A stretch of DNA of 25,983 nucleotides from Chloroflexota bacterium (GCA_013820865.1 JACDHU010000001.1:1-25983); one strand, 5' to 3'; positions 1 through 24,164 are shown, numbered from the stretch's first letter. Program-made: numbers and translations. Notes: generated by a model from the sequence alone, not told the origin.

Positions 1-1725
1 CACATCGAGCAGAAGAACTTCGACCCGGTCACCCGCGTCGCCGGCGCGCTCGCGTTCCATACCGTTGTCGATAGTCAGGCGCGCAAGGTCATCGAGGCGC
101 GCAGCGTGGCCACCCTGTTCCGTGGCTACGAGGTGATCATGATGGGCCGCGACCCGCGCGACGCCATCTTCATCACGAGTCGCGCCTGTGGCGTTTGCGG
201 CGGCGTTCACTCCACGGCTGCGGCACTGGCGATCGAGATGGCCTGCGGCGTCAAGCCGCCGCCACTGGGTACGGTCGTGCGCAACCTGCTCCTGGCCATC
301 GAATACCTCTATGACAACCCGCTCCACCTTTTCCTGCTTGCGGGACCGGACTACTCGGAGGCGATCGTCTCGAAGACGAACCCCGAGCTCTATCGCCGAG
401 CGGAGCAGACGCCCGCGCCGCACAGCAACGTGCATGGCTACAGCAAGATCTCCGACATCATGCGCGACCTGAATCCGCTGGAGGGCAGCCTCTACCTCGA
501 GGCCCTTGGCATGACGCGGGTGGCGCGCGAGGCGTACGTCCTCATCGGCGGAAAGTATCCGCATCCGCAGACGATCGTGCCCGGTGGCATCAGCGCCACG
601 GTTACCCTCTCGACGCTGAACGAGATCTACCTTCGCATTCAACGGTTCTTCGACTACGCCAAGCGGGTTGTCGCCATCTACGACGATATCTGCGACTTCT
701 TCTACGATGCCGATCCGCGCTACCGCGACGTCGGCCGCACGAGCGCCAACCTGATCGACCTCGGCCAGTGGGACGACCCTGACGCGTACGATGCGACCTA
801 CGAGAACTGCGGCGCGTGGGGTGAGCAGCGCTGGGCGACGCCCGGCGTCATCATCGACGGCAAGCAGGTCACGACCAACCTGCAGCACATCAACCTGGGA
901 CTCGAGGAGTTCGTCGAGCACTCCTTCTACGAGGAGTGGGCGGGCGACGGGGTGCGCCATGCGACGGATCCGCTGGGCGCGCCGCTGTCGCCGTACCATC
1001 CGTGGAACAAGAGCACCAAGCCGCGGCCCCAGGCAACCAGCTGGCGTGAGAAGTACACCTGGGCGACGGCGCCGCGGTGGGACCGCCAGGCGATGGACGC
1101 CGAGGCGTCGGCACGGCTGTGGAACACGGCGCTGGCACAGAAGATTCCTTCCAACCCGTACATCGAGTCGACCGGGCACTCGCTCAAGTTGCTGCTTCCC
1201 GCCGGACGGCTGCCGCAGACGGAGCTGGAGTGGAAGGTTCCGGACGTGTGGAATGCCTTCGAGCGCAACCGAGGTCGTGCCTACTCCGTCGCCTACACGT
1301 CGCTCGTGGCGCTCAACCTGTGGTCCGCGGCGAGCGACCTCATGAAGGCCGGGCAGACGGCGGTGAGCACGAAGTTCGAGATTCCCAAGAGTGGCACCCA
1401 GTTGGGCGTCGGGTTCTGGGGCGCCGGTCGCGGGTTCCTGTCGCATCATCTCGAGCTCGAGGATGGCGTCGTCACGAACTACCAGATCGTCACTCCGTCG
1501 ACCATCAACGCGTCGCCGCGAGATCCATGGGACACCCCCGGAAAGTACGAGGAGGCGGTGCTCAACACGCCGATTCTCGAGACGGGGAATGGCGGTTTCC
1601 AGGGCATCGACGTGTTGCGTGCGATTCGGTCGTTCGACCCGTGCATGCCGTGCACGACCCATATCCACAGCGACGAGGGCGTCGTCACCCGTGAGATCAA
1701 TACCTGCGCCTGCGGTGTCGACTGA
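1..1725 (+). CDS. [NiFe]-hydrogenase large subunit, 5'-partial; group 1h-related lineage, probably group 1l-like
   Basis: Frame is open from base 1 (HIEQKNFDPVTRVAGALAFH...), so the true start is upstream of the window. L1 motif SRACGVCGGVH, canopy-Arg motif WGAGRGFLSHH, L2 motif FDPCMPCTTH plus a 20-aa C-terminal extension. Colinear with but divergent from the hhyL at 5933. Group assignment is from recall. Confidence 0.95.
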   Translation, partial: HIEQKNFDPVTRVAGALAFHTVVDSQARKVIEARSVATLFRGYEVIMMGRDPRDAIFITSRACGVCGGVHSTAAALAIEMACGVKPPPLGTVVRNLLLAIEYLYDNPLHLFLLAGPDYSEAIVSKTNPELYRRAEQTPAPHSNVHGYSKISDIMRDLNPLEGSLYLEALGMTRVAREAYVLIGGKYPHPQTIVPGGISATVTLSTLNEIYLRIQRFFDYAKRVVAIYDDICDFFYDADPRYRDVGRTSANLIDLGQWDDPDAYDATYENCGAWGEQRWATPGVIIDGKQVTTNLQHINLGLEEFVEHSFYEEWAGDGVRHATDPLGAPLSPYHPWNKSTKPRPQATSWREKYTWATAPRWDRQAMDAEASARLWNTALAQKIPSNPYIESTGHSLKLLLPAGRLPQTELEWKVPDVWNAFERNRGRAYSVAYTSLVALNLWSAASDLMKAGQTAVSTKFEIPKSGTQLGVGFWGAGRGFLSHHLELEDGVVTNYQIVTPSTINASPRDPWDTPGKYEEAVLNTPILETGNGGFQGIDVLRAIRSFDPCMPCTTHIHSDEGVVTREINTCACGVD

Positions 1726-2242
1726 CGTGATCCTGGTTGGCGGGGTTGGCTATACGTTCCTCGGGGACCTCTCGTTTGGAGCGATCCTCGTTGAACGACT
1801 GCGTCGTCGGTCCTGGCCGTCCAGCGTCGCGATCGAGGATGTCAGCTATAACCCGATCACGGTCATGGATTGGCTGCGAGATGCCCCGGACCGCTTCGAT
1901 CGCGCCGTGTTGATCTCCGCAGTCGAGCGAGGGGATGAGCCCGGCCACCTGCGACGCTCGCGATGGACGGCCACGGCCCATTCGACCGCTGAGGTGCAGG
2001 CGTGCGTGGCCGAAGCGGTGACCGGGAGCATCGGCCTCGACAATCTCCTGGTCATTGGCACGCACTTCGGACTGCTTCCGAAGGACACGACGGTGATCGA
2101 GCTGGAGCCCGTCGATAGCGGGTGGGGCGAGGGGCTCAGCCCCGTTGCCGAGCAACGTGCCGCGGAGCTCGAAAGCTGGCTCGTCGCCGAATTTGGTGAA
2201 CTCGCGTCGGTTGCCCCGGCATCGGCCGTGGAGATCGGATGA
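1715..2242 (+). CDS. Hydrogenase maturation protease homolog (HyaD/HybD fold) with degenerate metal ligands
   Basis: GTG start at 1715 (or 1727); the 1391 start in the ORF track overlaps the large subunit. VILVGGVGYTFLGDLSFG, LISAVERGDEPG and GEGLSP align with the protease at 3020. The stop overlaps the next ATG (ATGA 2239-2242). Confidence 0.8.
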   Translation: MSTDVILVGGVGYTFLGDLSFGAILVERLRRRSWPSSVAIEDVSYNPITVMDWLRDAPDRFDRAVLISAVERGDEPGHLRRSRWTATAHSTAEVQACVAEAVTGSIGLDNLLVIGTHFGLLPKDTTVIELEPVDSGWGEGLSPVAEQRAAELESWLVAEFGELASVAPASAVEIG

Positions 2243-2637
2243 CCACGAACGCCGCCCGGACCGATGGGCTCGATGCGATCCGTTGTCGTGACGACATCCT
2301 CCAGGCCATGTACTGGCTGCGCGGCGAGGATCCTGGCGCCGATCCTGATCTGCCCAAGCTCGAGCGGCTGCTCGTCACCGATGTCGCCCTCATCCGGTCG
2401 CAGTTGGTAACGCTCGTCGACGACGGTCTGGTCGAGGAGCATCACGATCGGTACCGACTCACCGAAACCGGCACGCGCGAGGGCGGTCGCCGCTTTGCGG
2501 ACGAGTTTGCCGACCTGACGCGCAGCGCCCACGGCGACTGTCCACCGAACTGTCCGCATTGCGTGGGGATCGCTCGTGACGCGTGCACCCACTGCCTCGG
2601 GGGTGAGCCCGACGGCTCCTCGTGGGCCGGGGCGTGA
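2239..2637 (+). CDS. Hypothetical protein, winged-helix-like N-terminus plus His/Cys-rich tail
   Basis: LVDDGLVEE..RYRLTETG resembles a winged-helix wing; tail is HGDCPPNCPHC-x7-CTHC. Coupled to both neighbours by 4-nt overlaps. Confidence 0.75.
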   Translation: MTTNAARTDGLDAIRCRDDILQAMYWLRGEDPGADPDLPKLERLLVTDVALIRSQLVTLVDDGLVEEHHDRYRLTETGTREGGRRFADEFADLTRSAHGDCPPNCPHCVGIARDACTHCLGGEPDGSSWAGA

Positions 2638-23098: not shown

Positions 23099-23168
23099 GC
23101 GCCACGGTAGGCTGATCGACACCATGACGTCCAATACATGTATTGAATAAAATTGATAAGATTATCGA
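23099..23168. promoter_or_regulatory. Divergent cbbL/cbbR control region with candidate CbbR sites
   Basis: AT-rich island containing the perfect palindrome CAATACATGTATTG (23132-23145), TGA-N7-TGA (23144-23156; TNA-N7-TNA LysR/CbbR motif) and GATAA-N2-TTATC (23155-23166). Extended -10 TGaTAAGAT lies 6 nt before the cbbR ATG; minus-strand TACCGT lies 5 nt before the cbbL ATG. Confidence 0.7.
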
Positions 23169-24164
23169 ATGCAAGAGACTGAGCCATTCGAACGGCGCGT
23201 CACCGTGCATCAGTTGCGGATCTTCACGACGGTCATCGATCTACAAAACTTTTCCCGTGCGGCCGATGCGCTCCATCTGAGCCAGCCGGCCGTGTCGCAC
23301 CAGGTGAAGGCCCTTGCGATCGCCGTCCGCGGGCCGATCGTCGAAGTCGTGGGAAGGCATGCGCGGCCAACGGAAATCGGCAGGCTCCTGTACGAGCATG
23401 CGACCCGCATCCTCGCCGAGTTTGCGTCCGCCGAGCGGGCCATCGATGAGCTGCACGGCCTCGAGCGGGGAATCCTCCGCGTATCGGGCGACACGACGGT
23501 CGGCATTTACGTCCTGCCTGACCTGCTCGGTGCCTTCAAGGCCGCGAATCCGGGAGTGGACGTCCGGCTGGACGTTGGGAACCGTGACCACGTGTACCAG
23601 CGGATCATGGATGGAGACGCGGACTTCGCCGTCGTGGGTCGTCTCCGCGAACGGCCCGCCATTCCATTGGCGGTCCAGCCGTTTCTTCCGAACGAGCTGA
23701 TCGCCATTGTGCCGCCCGGGCACGCGCTGGCTTCGGCGGATCGCGTCTCACTGGCGCGCTTCGCTCGGGAGCTATTCATCGTGCGGGAGCCCGGATCAGG
23801 CACTCGGGAAACAGCCGACGAGGCGCTGGCGCGTGCACCAAGACCCATCGAGATCGTGATGGAGCTTGCCAGCAATGGCGCGATCAAGCGCGCCGTGGCT
23901 GGCGGTCTCGGCGTGGCCATTGTCTCGCGGCATTCCGTCTCGCTCGAGCTCGAGCTGGGGCTCGTGGTCGAGGTTCCCGTGGCCGGCTTTCCGCTGCACC
24001 GTCAATGGCACCTGGTGTACCCGCGCGGCCGCCGGCTCGGCCCGGTTGGGATCGCGTTTCTTTCGTTCGTCGAGGAGAGCAGTTGGCGGTCGTCCGTCGG
24101 AGCGACCCTCGCGACCGATGAGTTCGGGCCCCGAGCGCCGTCTGATCCGATGATCCAACGTTGA
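23169..24164 (+). CDS. cbbR: LysR-family regulator, CbbR by position
   Basis: VTVHQLRIF...NFSRAADALHLSQPAVSHQVK helix-turn-helix, REPGSGTRE and SNGAIKRAV; divergent from cbbL. Confidence 0.88.
   Translation: MQETEPFERRVTVHQLRIFTTVIDLQNFSRAADALHLSQPAVSHQVKALAIAVRGPIVEVVGRHARPTEIGRLLYEHATRILAEFASAERAIDELHGLERGILRVSGDTTVGIYVLPDLLGAFKAANPGVDVRLDVGNRDHVYQRIMDGDADFAVVGRLRERPAIPLAVQPFLPNELIAIVPPGHALASADRVSLARFARELFIVREPGSGTRETADEALARAPRPIEIVMELASNGAIKRAVAGGLGVAIVSRHSVSLELELGLVVEVPVAGFPLHRQWHLVYPRGRRLGPVGIAFLSFVEESSWRSSVGATLATDEFGPRAPSDPMIQR

What the first reader, a model, noticed from the sequence alone, without database searches (positions are those of the whole stretch)
1..24164. Two different putative high-affinity hydrogenases and a Calvin-cycle cassette within about 24 kb
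Seen: a divergent large subunit (RACGVC/DPCMPC), a complete group 1h operon, a metal-type ABC importer and cbbLSX-fbp-prk-cbbR are all adjacent. Established: group 1h enzymes oxidise atmospheric H2, and RuBisCO plus PRK define CBB autotrophy. Inference: this is a trace-gas chemosynthesis locus linking two H2-uptake systems to CO2 fixation. Two tandem operons with parallel maturation tails suggest a division of labour by affinity, O2 level or growth phase.
Basis: partly seen in the sequence, partly recalled or inferred. Interest (0 to 1): 0.75.

Follow-up and report, generated by a model that had tools for sequence, protein, structure and literature searches.

The report
Two-hydrogenase plus Calvin-cycle gene island
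A dryland-soil Chloroflexota bacterium carries two different oxygen-tolerant hydrogen-consuming enzymes and a complete CO2-fixation cassette side by side. This fits the already proposed 'living on air' lifestyle of this lineage, and the genome lacks the standard helper genes (HypD, HypE, HypF) thought to build such enzymes.

Summary
The window is a whole 26-kb contig of a Limnocylindria (Ellin6529 / Ca. Edaphomicrobia) MAG.

**Gene content**
- The 3' part of a group 1l (Hyl) [NiFe]-hydrogenase operon.
- A full group 1h (Hhy) operon.
- An ABC importer of unknown substrate, so 'metal-type' is unproven.
- A form IC RuBisCO cassette, cbbLSX-fbp-prk, with a divergent cbbR.

**How new it is**
- H2-driven CO2 fixation was already predicted for this class (Ortiz et al.), so this is a new member of a known kind.
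- The tight linkage is less ordinary. The 1l-to-1h tandem recurs in a few Chloroflexota, and the cbb genes lie beside a hydrogenase operon, which an earlier survey reported as not co-localised.
- Relatives carry deletion scars, which shows that modules are gained and lost.

**Most interesting by-product**
- These genomes lack HypD, HypE and HypF.
- Each operon ends with HypC plus DUF6390, a protein with a HypC-like domain.
- DUF6390 and HypD were mutually exclusive in 301 genomes. The scan has noted this on other DNA before.

Co-expression and division of labour remain untested.

The parts
1..1725 (+). [quoted passage not shown] About 54 codons are missing at the 5' end because the contig starts here. 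A 21-residue C-terminal extension follows the Ni-site His.
   Evidence: PF00374; 515 bits to 5AA5; 43% identity to HhyL; 91-92% identity to 628-aa proteins of Limnocylindria MAGs
1712..2242 (+). orfA, a HycI-like protein (probable pseudo-protease), conserved after hylL
   Evidence: 65-68% identity to the same-position ORF in relatives and weak similarity to HycI; no Pfam hit
2239..2637 (+). orfB, 132 aa, with a Cys/His-rich C-terminus; conserved 1l accessory gene
   Evidence: dN/dS 0.15 against G036
2622..3023 (+). orfC, 133 aa; conserved 1l accessory gene of unknown function
3020..3544 (+). HycI-type maturation endopeptidase of the 1l operon
   Evidence: PF01750
3550..3783 (+). HypC of the 1l operon (77 aa)
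   Evidence: PF01455; identical protein on 15 public contigs
3780..4526 (+). DUF6390 of the 1l operon, overlapping the hypC stop codon
   Evidence: PF19927; dN/dS 0.075
4833..5906 (+). hhyS, group 1h small subunit, with a proximal-cluster CDGD motif
   Evidence: PF01058 and PF14720; alignment
5933..7741 (+). hhyL, group 1h large subunit (602 aa)
   Evidence: 1067 bits to 5AA5; motifs
7745..8623 (+). NifU-Rieske iron-sulfur protein (HhyE-like putative electron relay)
   Evidence: PF01106 and PF00355
8628..11319 (+). DUF5947, DUF6084 and a 444-aa conserved protein; accessory genes also found after hhyL in the three other 1h operons examined (G036, G151, G245)
   Evidence: synteny in G036, G151 and G245
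11316..11819 (+). HycI-type endopeptidase of the 1h operon
   Evidence: PF01750
11832..12082 (+). two DUF6893 membrane microproteins (40 and 35 aa)
   Evidence: PF21833 on gene calls of the 99.8% identical contig
12092..12352 (+). short HypA (86 aa); matches only positions 1-69 of the 112-position HypA profile (the Zn-finger part of HypA, from memory, lies in the unmatched remainder)
   Evidence: PF01155 positions 1-69 of 112
12364..12672 (+). HypC of the 1h operon
   Evidence: PF01455
12669..13508 (+). DUF6390 of the 1h operon: an N-terminal helical domain with invariant Cys/His residues, plus a HypC-like OB domain
   Evidence: PF19927; alignment A1; AF2 model pLDDT 81; best structural match HypC 2z1c
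13624..17352 (+). ABC importer (binding protein, fused double permease, ATPase) of the FbpA/AfuA/PhnS/PotD kind; substrate unknown; follows DUF6390 in several relatives
   Evidence: synteny
17446..18341 (+). 73-aa ORF and a PNPOx-like split-barrel protein; role unknown
   Evidence: gene calls
18338..19231 (-). prk, phosphoribulokinase
   Evidence: PF00485
19247..20311 (-). fbp, class I fructose-1,6-bisphosphatase (may also act on sedoheptulose bisphosphate, as cbb-operon CbbF enzymes do; from memory)
   Evidence: PF00316 and PF18913
20308..21219 (-). cbbX, red-type RuBisCO activase
   Evidence: TIGR02880, 520 bits, above the cut-off
21216..21635 (-). cbbS, RuBisCO small subunit
   Evidence: PF00101; gene call
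21647..23125 (-). cbbL, form IC RuBisCO large subunit; carries Ala where other form I enzymes have His298
23169..24164 (+). cbbR, LysR-type regulator, divergent from cbbL
   Evidence: PF00126 and PF03466
24222..25983 (+). DrrA/DrrB-type ABC-2 exporter (conserved genus backbone, outside the finding)

Best explanation
The window is an 'aerotrophy' gene island of an uncultured dryland-soil bacterium of Chloroflexota class Limnocylindria (Ellin6529 / Ca. Edaphomicrobia).

What it encodes:
- Two paralogous, presumably O2-tolerant H2-uptake [NiFe]-hydrogenases in tandem. One is group 1l (Hyl), whose 5' half lies on contig C361 of the same MAG. The other is group 1h (Hhy).
- Each hydrogenase has its own endopeptidase, HypC and DUF6390.
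- These are followed by an ABC importer that travels with DUF6390.
- Next comes a proteobacterial-type form IC RuBisCO cassette (cbbLSX-fbp-prk) under a divergent CbbR.

Inferred mechanism:
- Both enzymes oxidise H2, probably down to atmospheric levels.
- Electrons would reach the aerobic respiratory chain through the HylTM proteins for 1l, and through the NifU-Rieske protein with the DUF6893 microproteins for 1h.
- The resulting energy and reductant would drive CO2 fixation by the CBB cycle. Its remaining enzymes (transketolase, ribulose-phosphate epimerase) are encoded elsewhere in the genome.

The island is modular and evolutionarily fluid. Relatives have lost the 1h operon or the cbb cassette and kept scars.

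Shown here: gene identities, group assignment, contiguity, synteny and purifying selection.
Inferred only: high affinity, electron routes, coupling to CO2 fixation, and any division of labour.
For: - Gene identities.
- Group 1h: 5AA5 at 1067 bits and CDGD in the small subunit.
- Group 1l, sequence: 43% identity to 1h. It is 65-79% identical to large subunits of the MGR_bin MAGs of the study that defined the group, and HylTM homologues occur in most of 80 named loci.
- Group 1l, gene order: HylS, five TM ORFs, HylL in relatives L001, L014, L022 and L026. HylS has CDGC and a C-terminal extension.
- The 5' half of the Hyl operon is on own contig C361: a CooC-like gene plus HylS at 90% identity.
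- Form IC: 886 and 880 bits to the R. sphaeroides and C. necator enzymes. It is 85-86% identical to Steroidobacter. CbbX scores above its cut-off.
- Contiguity in independent assemblies.
- Purifying selection against G036: dN/dS 0.05-0.11 for HylL, HhyS, HhyL, HypC and both DUF6390 genes.
- Tandem 1l-to-1h also in G036 (same genus) and G151 (another family).
- Only these two [NiFe] large subunits are in the MAG. Transketolase and RPE lie elsewhere.
- Sources: desert, soil and hypolith metagenomes.
- Literature: Ellin6529 was predicted to couple H2/CO oxidation to type IC RuBisCO (10.1101/2020.08.06.239558). H. roseosalivarius, which carries 1l, is cited as a validated atmospheric H2 oxidiser (PMC13554262).
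Against: - There are no expression or activity data, and no hydrogenase regulator lies in the window.
- Promoter and terminator scans gave no more hits than chance.
- HypD, HypE and HypF were not found in this genome or in hydrogenase-bearing relatives. Maturation is therefore unexplained by the canonical pathway.
- RuBisCO has Ala at position 298, although this variant is conserved in 20 of 121 close homologue clusters.
- cbb is rare in the class. RbcL of this type was found in only 2 of 151 genomes and in none of 12 genus relatives.
- None of 80 group 1l loci from other species has a 1h subunit or RbcL within 10 kb. Linkage is therefore not a general rule and could be incidental.
- Group assignment was not done with HydDB reference trees.
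Confidence: 0.8

Rival explanations
1. Incidental juxtaposition. The region downstream of the hydrogenase genes is a recombination hot spot where accessory modules accumulate. The hydrogenases mainly support persistence or mixotrophy, and are not functionally or regulatorily coupled to the cbb cassette.
For: - Gene order after the importer differs in every relative. Examples are TetR-DrrAB in G036, tilS-like-FtsH in G048, and other genes in G069.
- The cbb cassette lies upstream of the 1l operon in a JGI contig but downstream here.
- G010 has both modules on different contigs.
- West-Roberts et al. found them not co-localised.
- Aerotrophy genes are reported as frequently transferred (PMC13554262).
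Against: - cbb lies beside a hydrogenase operon in two different arrangements in related organisms.
- G036 keeps a prk remnant in the same neighbourhood. Together these suggest repeated retention of the linkage.
- Genome co-occurrence of 1l and form I RuBisCO is reported for this lineage.
Confidence: 0.3
2. The hydrogenases cannot be matured in this organism, because HypD, HypE and HypF are missing. On this reading the locus is a decaying or non-functional relic.
For: No HypD, HypE or HypF above cut-off in G000, G036, G048, G069, G010, G151, G245, G186 or G003.
Against: - Strong purifying selection acts on the structural genes and tails.
- The Ni-site cysteines and the cleavable C-terminal extensions are intact.
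- The same HypDEF-less state holds in near-closed genomes (2-4 contigs) and in all 11 HypD-negative hydrogenase-bearing genomes. All 11 carry DUF6390.
Confidence: 0.05
3. Assembly or binning artefact. On this reading the 1l, 1h and cbb parts come from different organisms.
For: The MAG is fragmented (388 contigs, 84% complete, 4.8% contamination). RbcL is 85-86% identical to proteobacterial proteins.
Against: - At least three independent assemblies from different studies span every junction at 99.8-100% identity.
- The flanking DrrAB genes and the 1l tail are orthologous to genus relatives at 76-81% nucleotide identity.
- GC content is uniform.
Confidence: 0.03

Closest known systems
Predicted atmospheric chemosynthesis ('aerotrophy') of class Ellin6529 / Ca. 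Edaphomicrobia (Ortiz et al., bioRxiv 10.1101/2020.08.06.239558; West-Roberts et al., bioRxiv 10.1101/2021.08.23.457424)
   Same: Same lineage, and the same enzyme set: group 1l and/or 1h hydrogenase plus form I (type IC) RuBisCO with a small subunit. The habitat, oligotrophic desert soils, is also the same.
   Different: - Here both hydrogenase groups sit in tandem, and the cbb cassette is 4.8 kb from the 1h tail on one contig.
- West-Roberts et al. state that the hydrogenase and rbc clusters are not co-localised in their genomes.
Group 1l [NiFe]-hydrogenase cluster of Hymenobacter roseosalivarius (HylS, HylTM1-5, HylL, HylE, HupD)
   Same: Relatives at 91-94% identity show HylS, five TM ORFs and HylL. 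A dedicated endopeptidase is present. The enzyme is a sister of group 1h.
   Different: - The window holds only hylL and the tail.
- No Rieske HylE was recognised in this tail, although G151 has one.
- The tail ends with HypC-DUF6390. In 34 of the 80 named 1l loci, all outside the Limnocylindria-like Chloroflexota set that carries DUF6390, HypD/E/F lie nearby and DUF6390 is absent.
Group 1h hydrogenases: Cupriavidus necator AH (PDB 5AA5) and Mycobacterium smegmatis Hhy
   Same: Large-subunit motifs, a Cys3Asp proximal cluster motif, adjacent small and large subunit genes, and an associated iron-sulfur protein.
   Different: In G290, a Chloroflexota genome with a canonical 1h locus, hypD/E/F lie beside the structural genes. 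From memory, the same holds for the C. necator and M. smegmatis clusters. Here they are missing, and HypC-DUF6390 plus a short HypA take the place.
Lithoautotrophy gene clustering on megaplasmid pHG1 of Cupriavidus necator (hydrogenases plus the cbb operon with cbbR, form IC); from memory
   Same: Hydrogenase genes and a form IC cbbLSX...prk operon with a divergent cbbR are physically linked on one replicon.
   Different: - Different phylum.
- The hydrogenases there are mainly groups 1d, 3d and 2b, plus 1h.
- The pHG1 cbb operon is larger and a full hyp set is present.
- It is a Knallgas organism growing at high H2, not a trace-gas scavenger.
Mycobacterium smegmatis Huc (group 2a) and Hhy (group 1h); from memory
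   Same: Two high-affinity uptake hydrogenases in one aerobe, a precedent for division of labour by growth phase.
   Different: The enzyme pair differs (2a plus 1h, not 1l plus 1h). The loci are separate and are not linked to RuBisCO.

Membership tests
Group 1h [NiFe]-hydrogenase (Hhy) | Large subunit closest to solved or characterised 1h enzymes, with L1/L2 Ni-site motifs of the 1h type | tested here: met
   1067 bits over 561 residues to 5AA5; the next best PDB hit is about 155 bits. Motifs TSRICGICGDNH and SFDPCLPCGVH. That these are the 1h motifs is from memory of HydDB.
Group 1h [NiFe]-hydrogenase (Hhy) | Small subunit adjacent to the large subunit, with the proximal cluster ligated by three Cys and one Asp | tested here: met
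   hhyS lies 27 bp upstream of hhyL. It has the CDGD motif where HylS has CDGC. The Asp ligand in 5AA5 is from memory.
Group 1h [NiFe]-hydrogenase (Hhy) | Oxidises H2 at atmospheric concentrations | not testable with these tools
   Needs whole-cell or enzyme kinetics.
Group 1l [NiFe]-hydrogenase (Hyl) | Five short transmembrane ORFs between the small and large subunit genes | tested here: met
   - This cannot be seen in the window, because the contig starts inside hylL.
- It is seen in L001 (91% identity), L014 (94% nucleotide identity, identical HypC), L022 and L026.
- Own contig C361 ends inside HylS.
- HylTM homologues occur in most of 80 loci.
Group 1l [NiFe]-hydrogenase (Hyl) | A separate lineage sharing roughly 40% identity with 1h and containing the Mackay Glacier MAG sequences | tested here: met
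   43% identity to HhyL. 65-79% identity to large subunits of MGR_bin214, 225, 231, 9, 258, 286, 293, 308 and 320.
Group 1l [NiFe]-hydrogenase (Hyl) | Substitution in a proximal-cluster ligand and sequence insertions relative to 1h | tested here: inconclusive
   HylS has CDGC against CDGD in HhyS, plus a C-terminal extension of about 60 aa. Which substitution the authors meant is in a supplementary note that was not read.
Group 1l [NiFe]-hydrogenase (Hyl) | Placement in a tree with HydDB references | not tested
   No named reference sequences could be fetched.
Group 1m [NiFe]-hydrogenase (Ray et al. 2022) | Small and large subunit genes adjacent; cluster with TPR, BirA-like and DUF1059 genes; found in Actinobacteriota | tested here: not met
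   Five ORFs interpose in relatives. No TPR, BirA or DUF1059 genes are present. The lineage is Chloroflexota.
Form IC (red-type) RuBisCO / CBB operon | Large plus small subunit, the CbbX activase, and highest similarity to proteobacterial IC enzymes | tested here: met
   5NV3 at 886 bits and 1BXN at 880 bits, against about 620 bits for green-type enzymes. CbbX scores 520 bits, above the cut-off of 459. 85-86% identity to Steroidobacter. No tree against form IE references was made.
Form IC (red-type) RuBisCO / CBB operon | PRK present, with a divergent LysR-type CbbR | tested here: met
Form IC (red-type) RuBisCO / CBB operon | Full set of conserved active-site residues | tested here: inconclusive
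   The sequence is HRAGAS where relatives have HRAGHS or HRAGHG, so Ala replaces His298. The same variant occurs in 20 of 121 close homologue clusters, so it is a conserved lineage trait. Its kinetic effect is unknown.
Canonical Hyp maturation system (HypA-F) | HypD, HypE and HypF present in a genome that has a [NiFe]-hydrogenase | tested here: not met
   - No match above cut-off in G000 or in eight related hydrogenase-bearing genomes, while the controls and G290 score 400-760 bits.
- HypD and DUF6390 are mutually exclusive in 301 genomes.

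The most novel reading that the evidence does not exclude
In this organism, and in every other DUF6390-carrying Chloroflexota genome searched, [NiFe]-hydrogenases of groups 1h, 1l and 3b would be matured without HypD, HypE and HypF. Each operon's HypC-DUF6390 pair would serve as the iron-cofactor scaffold. DUF6390 is a helical domain with invariant Cys/His residues fused to a HypC-like domain. The linked transporter may supply a precursor. This would be an undescribed route to the Fe(CN)2CO centre. 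The scan has reached the same idea before on other DNA (e1-5251248, e1-849050, e1-818509).
Probability: 0.5. Interest if true: 0.85.

Novelty: new member of a known kind. Interest (0 to 1): 0.5.

Why it matters
- **Testable hypothesis.** The locus gives a compact, verified piece of DNA that joins the two hydrogenase families thought to harvest atmospheric H2 with a complete RuBisCO cassette. It comes from a lineage proposed as a major primary producer of cold and hot deserts. The co-regulation and 'division of labour' hypotheses can therefore be tested on one locus.
- **Natural comparison set.** Close relatives lack exactly one module each: the 1h operon or the cbb cassette.
- **Maturation puzzle.** The locus adds a well-documented case, with two parallel copies, of the HypDEF-less HypC-DUF6390 tail. 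If this holds it would change the textbook view that HypCDEF are universal for [NiFe]-hydrogenases.

Tried and rejected
- **Read-level contiguity.** Exact-protein look-ups in independent assemblies replaced it.
- **Promoter and terminator scans.** They gave no more sites than shuffles, so they say nothing about operon boundaries.
- **Importer substrate.** NCBIfam and PDB matches of the binding protein are all weak and mixed: Fe(III), 2-aminoethylphosphonate, AfuA, a PLP binder and PotD. 'Metal-type' was therefore rejected as unproven.
- **Group 1m and non-uptake groups for subunit 1.** Rejected on gene order and similarity.
- **Form IE RuBisCO.** Rejected in favour of IC on similarity and on the literature for this class.
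- **DUF6390 fold.** Foldseek against the PDB gave nothing significant. Only the exhaustive aligner found HypC, at a modest Z of 5.7. hhalign to the window's own HypC proteins was weak (72% and below 1% probability). The N-terminal domain has no match.
- **Form I CO dehydrogenase.** Not found in the MAG.
- An exact look-up of HypC with a mis-set end found nothing. It was corrected.

Full report
**1. What is there**

The window is the whole of contig C210 of a 2.1-Mb, 388-contig MAG with 67% GC, 84% completeness and 4.8% contamination. Pfam and NCBIfam scans, together with the gene calls of a 99.8% identical public contig, give this order:
- hylL (cut at its 5' end), orfA, orfB, orfC, hycI, hypC, DUF6390.
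- hhyS, hhyL, NifU-Rieske, DUF5947, DUF6084, orf444, hycI, two DUF6893 microproteins, short hypA, hypC, DUF6390.
- ABC importer (binding protein, double permease, ATPase), a 73-aa ORF and a PNPOx-like gene.
- On the minus strand: prk, fbp, cbbX, cbbS, cbbL.
- On the plus strand: cbbR, then drrA and drrB.

**2. Is the contig real?**

- Exact-protein look-ups found the same junctions in independent assemblies.
- GCA_965611135.1 has a 26,088-bp contig that is 99.8% identical to window 2174-25983. It runs 2.3 kb further, into a 308-aa ORF and an RHH/PIN pair.
- GCA_020064125.1 has contigs of 14.7 and 6.9 kb. Logan contigs of SRR11719875, ERR15133369 and ERR15133370 cover the same ground.
- Between them these span the junctions 1l|1h, 1h|ABC, ABC|prk and cbbR|drrA.
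- Runs from at least three studies hold 89-96% of the words of 16500-24600. They are labelled soil (2020), soil (2025) and hypolithon (2016).
- Chimerism is rejected.

**3. The two hydrogenases**

*Second enzyme: textbook group 1h.*
- It scores 1067 bits to the C. necator enzyme 5AA5.
- It carries the motifs TSRICGICGDNH and SFDPCLPCGVH.
- Its small subunit is adjacent and has a CDGD proximal-cluster motif.

*First enzyme: group 1l.*
- It is 43% identical to the second enzyme, with few gaps. 5AA5 is also its best solved relative, at 515 bits. So it is an old paralogue inside the 1h-like radiation and not a sensor or a bidirectional type.
- Its closest homologues, at 91-92% identity, are 628-aa proteins of Ca. 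Limnocylindria / Chloroflexota MAGs.
- In these relatives the gene is preceded by a CooC-like ATPase, a 433-aa small subunit and five ORFs of 87-110 aa, each with one hydrophobic helix. This is the published hallmark of group 1l. It excludes group 1m, where S and L are adjacent.
- The clade includes large subunits of many MGR_bin MAGs of the study that defined 1l, at 65-79% identity.
- HylS has CDGC where HhyS has CDGD, and a C-terminal extension.
- The missing 5' half of the operon is on own contig C361. It holds the CooC-like gene and the first 276 residues of HylS at 90% identity, running off the contig end.
- Only these two [NiFe] large subunits exist in the MAG.

**4. The CO2-fixation cassette**

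- CbbL scores 886 bits to the form IC enzyme of R. sphaeroides and 880 bits to that of C. necator. Green-type enzymes score about 620 bits.
- CbbL is 84-92% identical to many proteins, among them Steroidobacter isolates (85-86%) and Ca. Limnocylindrales MAGs.
- CbbX is above its curated cut-off.
- This is form IC, as Ortiz et al. reported for class Ellin6529.
- The enzyme has Ala at the place of His298. The same variant is present in 20 of 121 close homologue clusters. It is therefore a conserved lineage trait and not an error.
- Transketolase and ribulose-phosphate epimerase are encoded elsewhere in the MAG.
- Form I CO dehydrogenase was not found.

**5. Comparative genomics**

*Class sample of 151 genomes.* (The counts include the unpublished genome G091. 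No sequence from it is used.)
- Nine genomes have a 1l or 1h large subunit.
- Only two have a red-type RbcL: G000 and G010.
- Within the genus, G036, G048 and G069 have 1l. Only G036 shares the 1l-to-1h tandem. None of the 12 relatives has RbcL.

*Phylum sample of 301 genomes.* (It includes the unpublished genome G383, used for counts only.)
- The tandem recurs in G151, a different family. There the full order is CooC, HylS, TM1-5, HylL ... HhyS, HhyL ... DUF6390 on one contig.

*80 named group 1l loci of other species.*
- None has a 1h subunit or RbcL within 10 kb. The linkage is uncommon.

*Signs that modules are gained and lost.*
- A JGI contig (Ga0183260_10001358) carries cbbR-cbbLSX-fbp-prk about 8 kb upstream of CooC-HylS-TM1-5-HylL. 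Its HylL is 80% and its RbcL 89% identical to the window's proteins. cbb therefore lies beside a 1l operon in two arrangements, contrary to the 'not co-localised' statement of West-Roberts et al..
- G036 keeps a frameshifted 3' remnant of prk, 80% nucleotide identity to the window's gene, beside DrrB.
- GCA_965609655.1 is 95% identical to the window in the 1l tail but lacks the 1h operon. It retains a 160-bp remnant of the 3' end of the 1h-type DUF6390 gene before the importer.

*Selection.* Between G000 and G036, dN/dS is 0.05-0.11 for HylL, HhyS, HhyL, HypC and both DUF6390 genes. Both enzymes and both tails are under purifying selection.

**6. The importer**

- The binding protein, the fused double permease and the ATPase match the PhnS2/PhnU2/PhnT2, PotD and Fbp families only far below their cut-offs.
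- The nearest solved binding proteins are a mixed bag: an Fe(III) binder, a 2-aminoethylphosphonate binder, AfuA and a PLP binder. All are weak, at 58 bits or less.
- The substrate is unknown.
- A homologous importer directly follows DUF6390 in G036, G048, G069 and GCA_965609655.1. It also does so in G045, which has no 1h/1l hydrogenase.
- It therefore belongs with the maturation tail and is not a random neighbour.

**7. An unexpected gap: no HypD, HypE or HypF**

*Absence of the canonical genes.*
- Family searches found no HypD, HypF or HypE above cut-off in G000. The same holds for G036, G048, G069, G010, G151, G245, G186 and G003. G003 is 97% complete in 4 contigs and has a group 3b hydrogenase beside DUF6390.
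- Control genomes and G290 scored 400-760 bits, and in G290 the three genes lie next to its 1h genes.

*Mutual exclusivity with DUF6390.*

| Sample | HypD | DUF6390 | Both |
|---|---|---|---|
| 301 genomes (phylum) | 136 | 31 | 0 |
| 45 of those with a 1h/1l large subunit | 34 | 11 | 0 |
| 80 named 1l loci | 34 (with HypE, mostly HypF) | 5 (Chloroflexota) | 0 |

- About 14 genomes with both would be expected by chance in the phylum sample. Kinship inflates any formal test.
- In the 45-genome row, the 11 with DUF6390 are exactly the 11 that lack HypD.

*What DUF6390 looks like.*
- It sits directly after hypC, overlapping its stop codon. From memory, this is where hypD sits in canonical hyp operons.
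- An alignment of 39 members shows invariant Cys46, His148, His151 and Cys177, and nearly invariant His238 and Cys243.
- The AlphaFold model has pLDDT 81 and pTM 0.82. It shows a helical N-domain with no match, plus a C-terminal OB domain.
- The best match of the OB domain among 48,161 chains is HypC (2z1c). The match has Z 5.7 and 2.0 A over all 71 residues, and it starts at the conserved Cys. E. coli HypC ranks third.
- This is a modest Z, and Foldseek alone missed it.

*Status.*
- I reached this reading independently. Afterwards I found that the scan had noted it on other DNA (e1-5251248, e1-849050, e1-818509, e1-5224157).
- No paper in the library mentions DUF6390 or DUF5947, and the single paper that mentions DUF6084 concerns an unrelated Streptomyces biosynthetic cluster.
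- How the CN and CO ligands would be made is unexplained.

**8. Mechanism and verdict**

*Shown.*
- Identities, group assignments, contiguity, synteny and selection.

*Inferred.*
- Both enzymes take up H2 aerobically.
- Electrons reach the quinone pool through the HylTM proteins for 1l. For 1h the route would be the NifU-Rieske protein, possibly with the DUF6893 microproteins.
- Energy and reductant drive the CBB cycle under CbbR control.

*Division of labour.*
- Each enzyme has its own protease, HypC and DUF6390. The two DUF6390 paralogues are 42% identical.
- This is compatible with independent regulation and with a division of labour. By analogy with Huc/Hhy of mycobacteria, 1l would serve growth or mixotrophy and 1h persistence.
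- Nothing here tests that.

*Verdict.*
- The finding is real, correctly read in outline, and a new member of a known kind. Ortiz et al. had predicted this metabolism for this class.
- Its added value is the physical linkage, the natural deletion variants and the doubled HypDEF-less maturation tail.

Noticed in passing
whole genome G000 and relatives; window 3550-4526 and 12364-13508: HypD, HypE and HypF were not found in this or eight related hydrogenase-bearing genomes. DUF6390 (a HypC-like domain plus a helical domain with invariant Cys/His) and HypD are mutually exclusive: 0 overlap in 301 Chloroflexota genomes and in 80 group 1l loci.
   Followed up: yes
window 22208-22210 (minus strand, cbbL): RuBisCO has Ala in place of His298 (HRAGAS). 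The same variant occurs in 20 of 121 close homologue clusters, so it is a conserved sub-lineage trait.
   Followed up: partly
L003:6436-6848 (G036 contig C27, after drrB): A frameshifted remnant of prk covering residues 156-293, 80% nucleotide identity to the window's prk. The genome has no other cbb gene. It is a scar of a lost Calvin cassette.
   Followed up: yes
L015:2748-2909 (GCA_965609655.1): This relative is 95% identical in the 1l tail but lacks the 1h operon. It keeps a 160-bp remnant of the 3' end of the 1h-type DUF6390 gene before the ABC importer. It is a scar of a deleted 1h operon.
   Followed up: yes
G000 contig C361:2-1621 (minus strand): A CooC-like ATPase and the first 276 residues of HylS run off the contig end. 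This is the missing 5' half of the window's 1l operon. A gap of about 2 kb should hold the five HylTM genes.
   Followed up: partly
L025/L026 (JGI Ga0183260_10001358, 20,528 bp): cbbR-cbbLSX-fbp-prk lies upstream of two ABC systems and a complete CooC-HylS-TM1-5-HylL operon. One of the ABC systems is SBP_bac_5 type, directly before the CooC-like gene, and could be a nickel or peptide importer. This is a second arrangement of cbb next to a 1l hydrogenase.
   Followed up: partly
L019:9073-14331 (G045 contig C8): A 1h-type DUF6390 (73% identity) followed by the same ABC importer, in a genome without a 1h/1l large subunit. The pair survives without the hydrogenase, or is a recent remnant.
   Followed up: no
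L018 and L020 (G003, G403): DUF6390 also sits beside group 3b-type hydrogenase genes (Fer4_22, NAD_binding_1, Oxidored_q6 and a 430-aa large subunit). In G003 it lies next to an EamA transporter.
   Followed up: partly
window 12092-12352 and 11832-12082: HypA is only 86 aa and matches the first 69 of 112 profile positions, so it has no zinc-finger part. Two tandem DUF6893 microproteins (40 and 35 aa) precede it.
   Followed up: partly
window 1712-2242: orfA after hylL is a distant HycI homologue (25-32% identity to the two real proteases) with no Pfam hit. It is a third protease-family gene for two large subunits.
   Followed up: partly
alignment A2 (group 1l large subunits): All 12 diverse HylL proteins start with the invariant N-terminus MCFKNLP, a conserved Cys2 of unknown role. 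The window's copy lacks this part because of the contig end.
   Followed up: no
L006:13048-14786 (continuation of the contig beyond the window): After drrB come a 308-aa ORF without a Pfam hit and an RHH/PIN toxin-antitoxin pair.
   Followed up: no
G176 contig C17:36604-50034: Another Chloroflexota genome has a 1l-like large subunit, HypD, and a partial 1h large subunit with an in-frame TGA, all within 14 kb. This may be a decaying tandem in a HypD-type genome.
   Followed up: no
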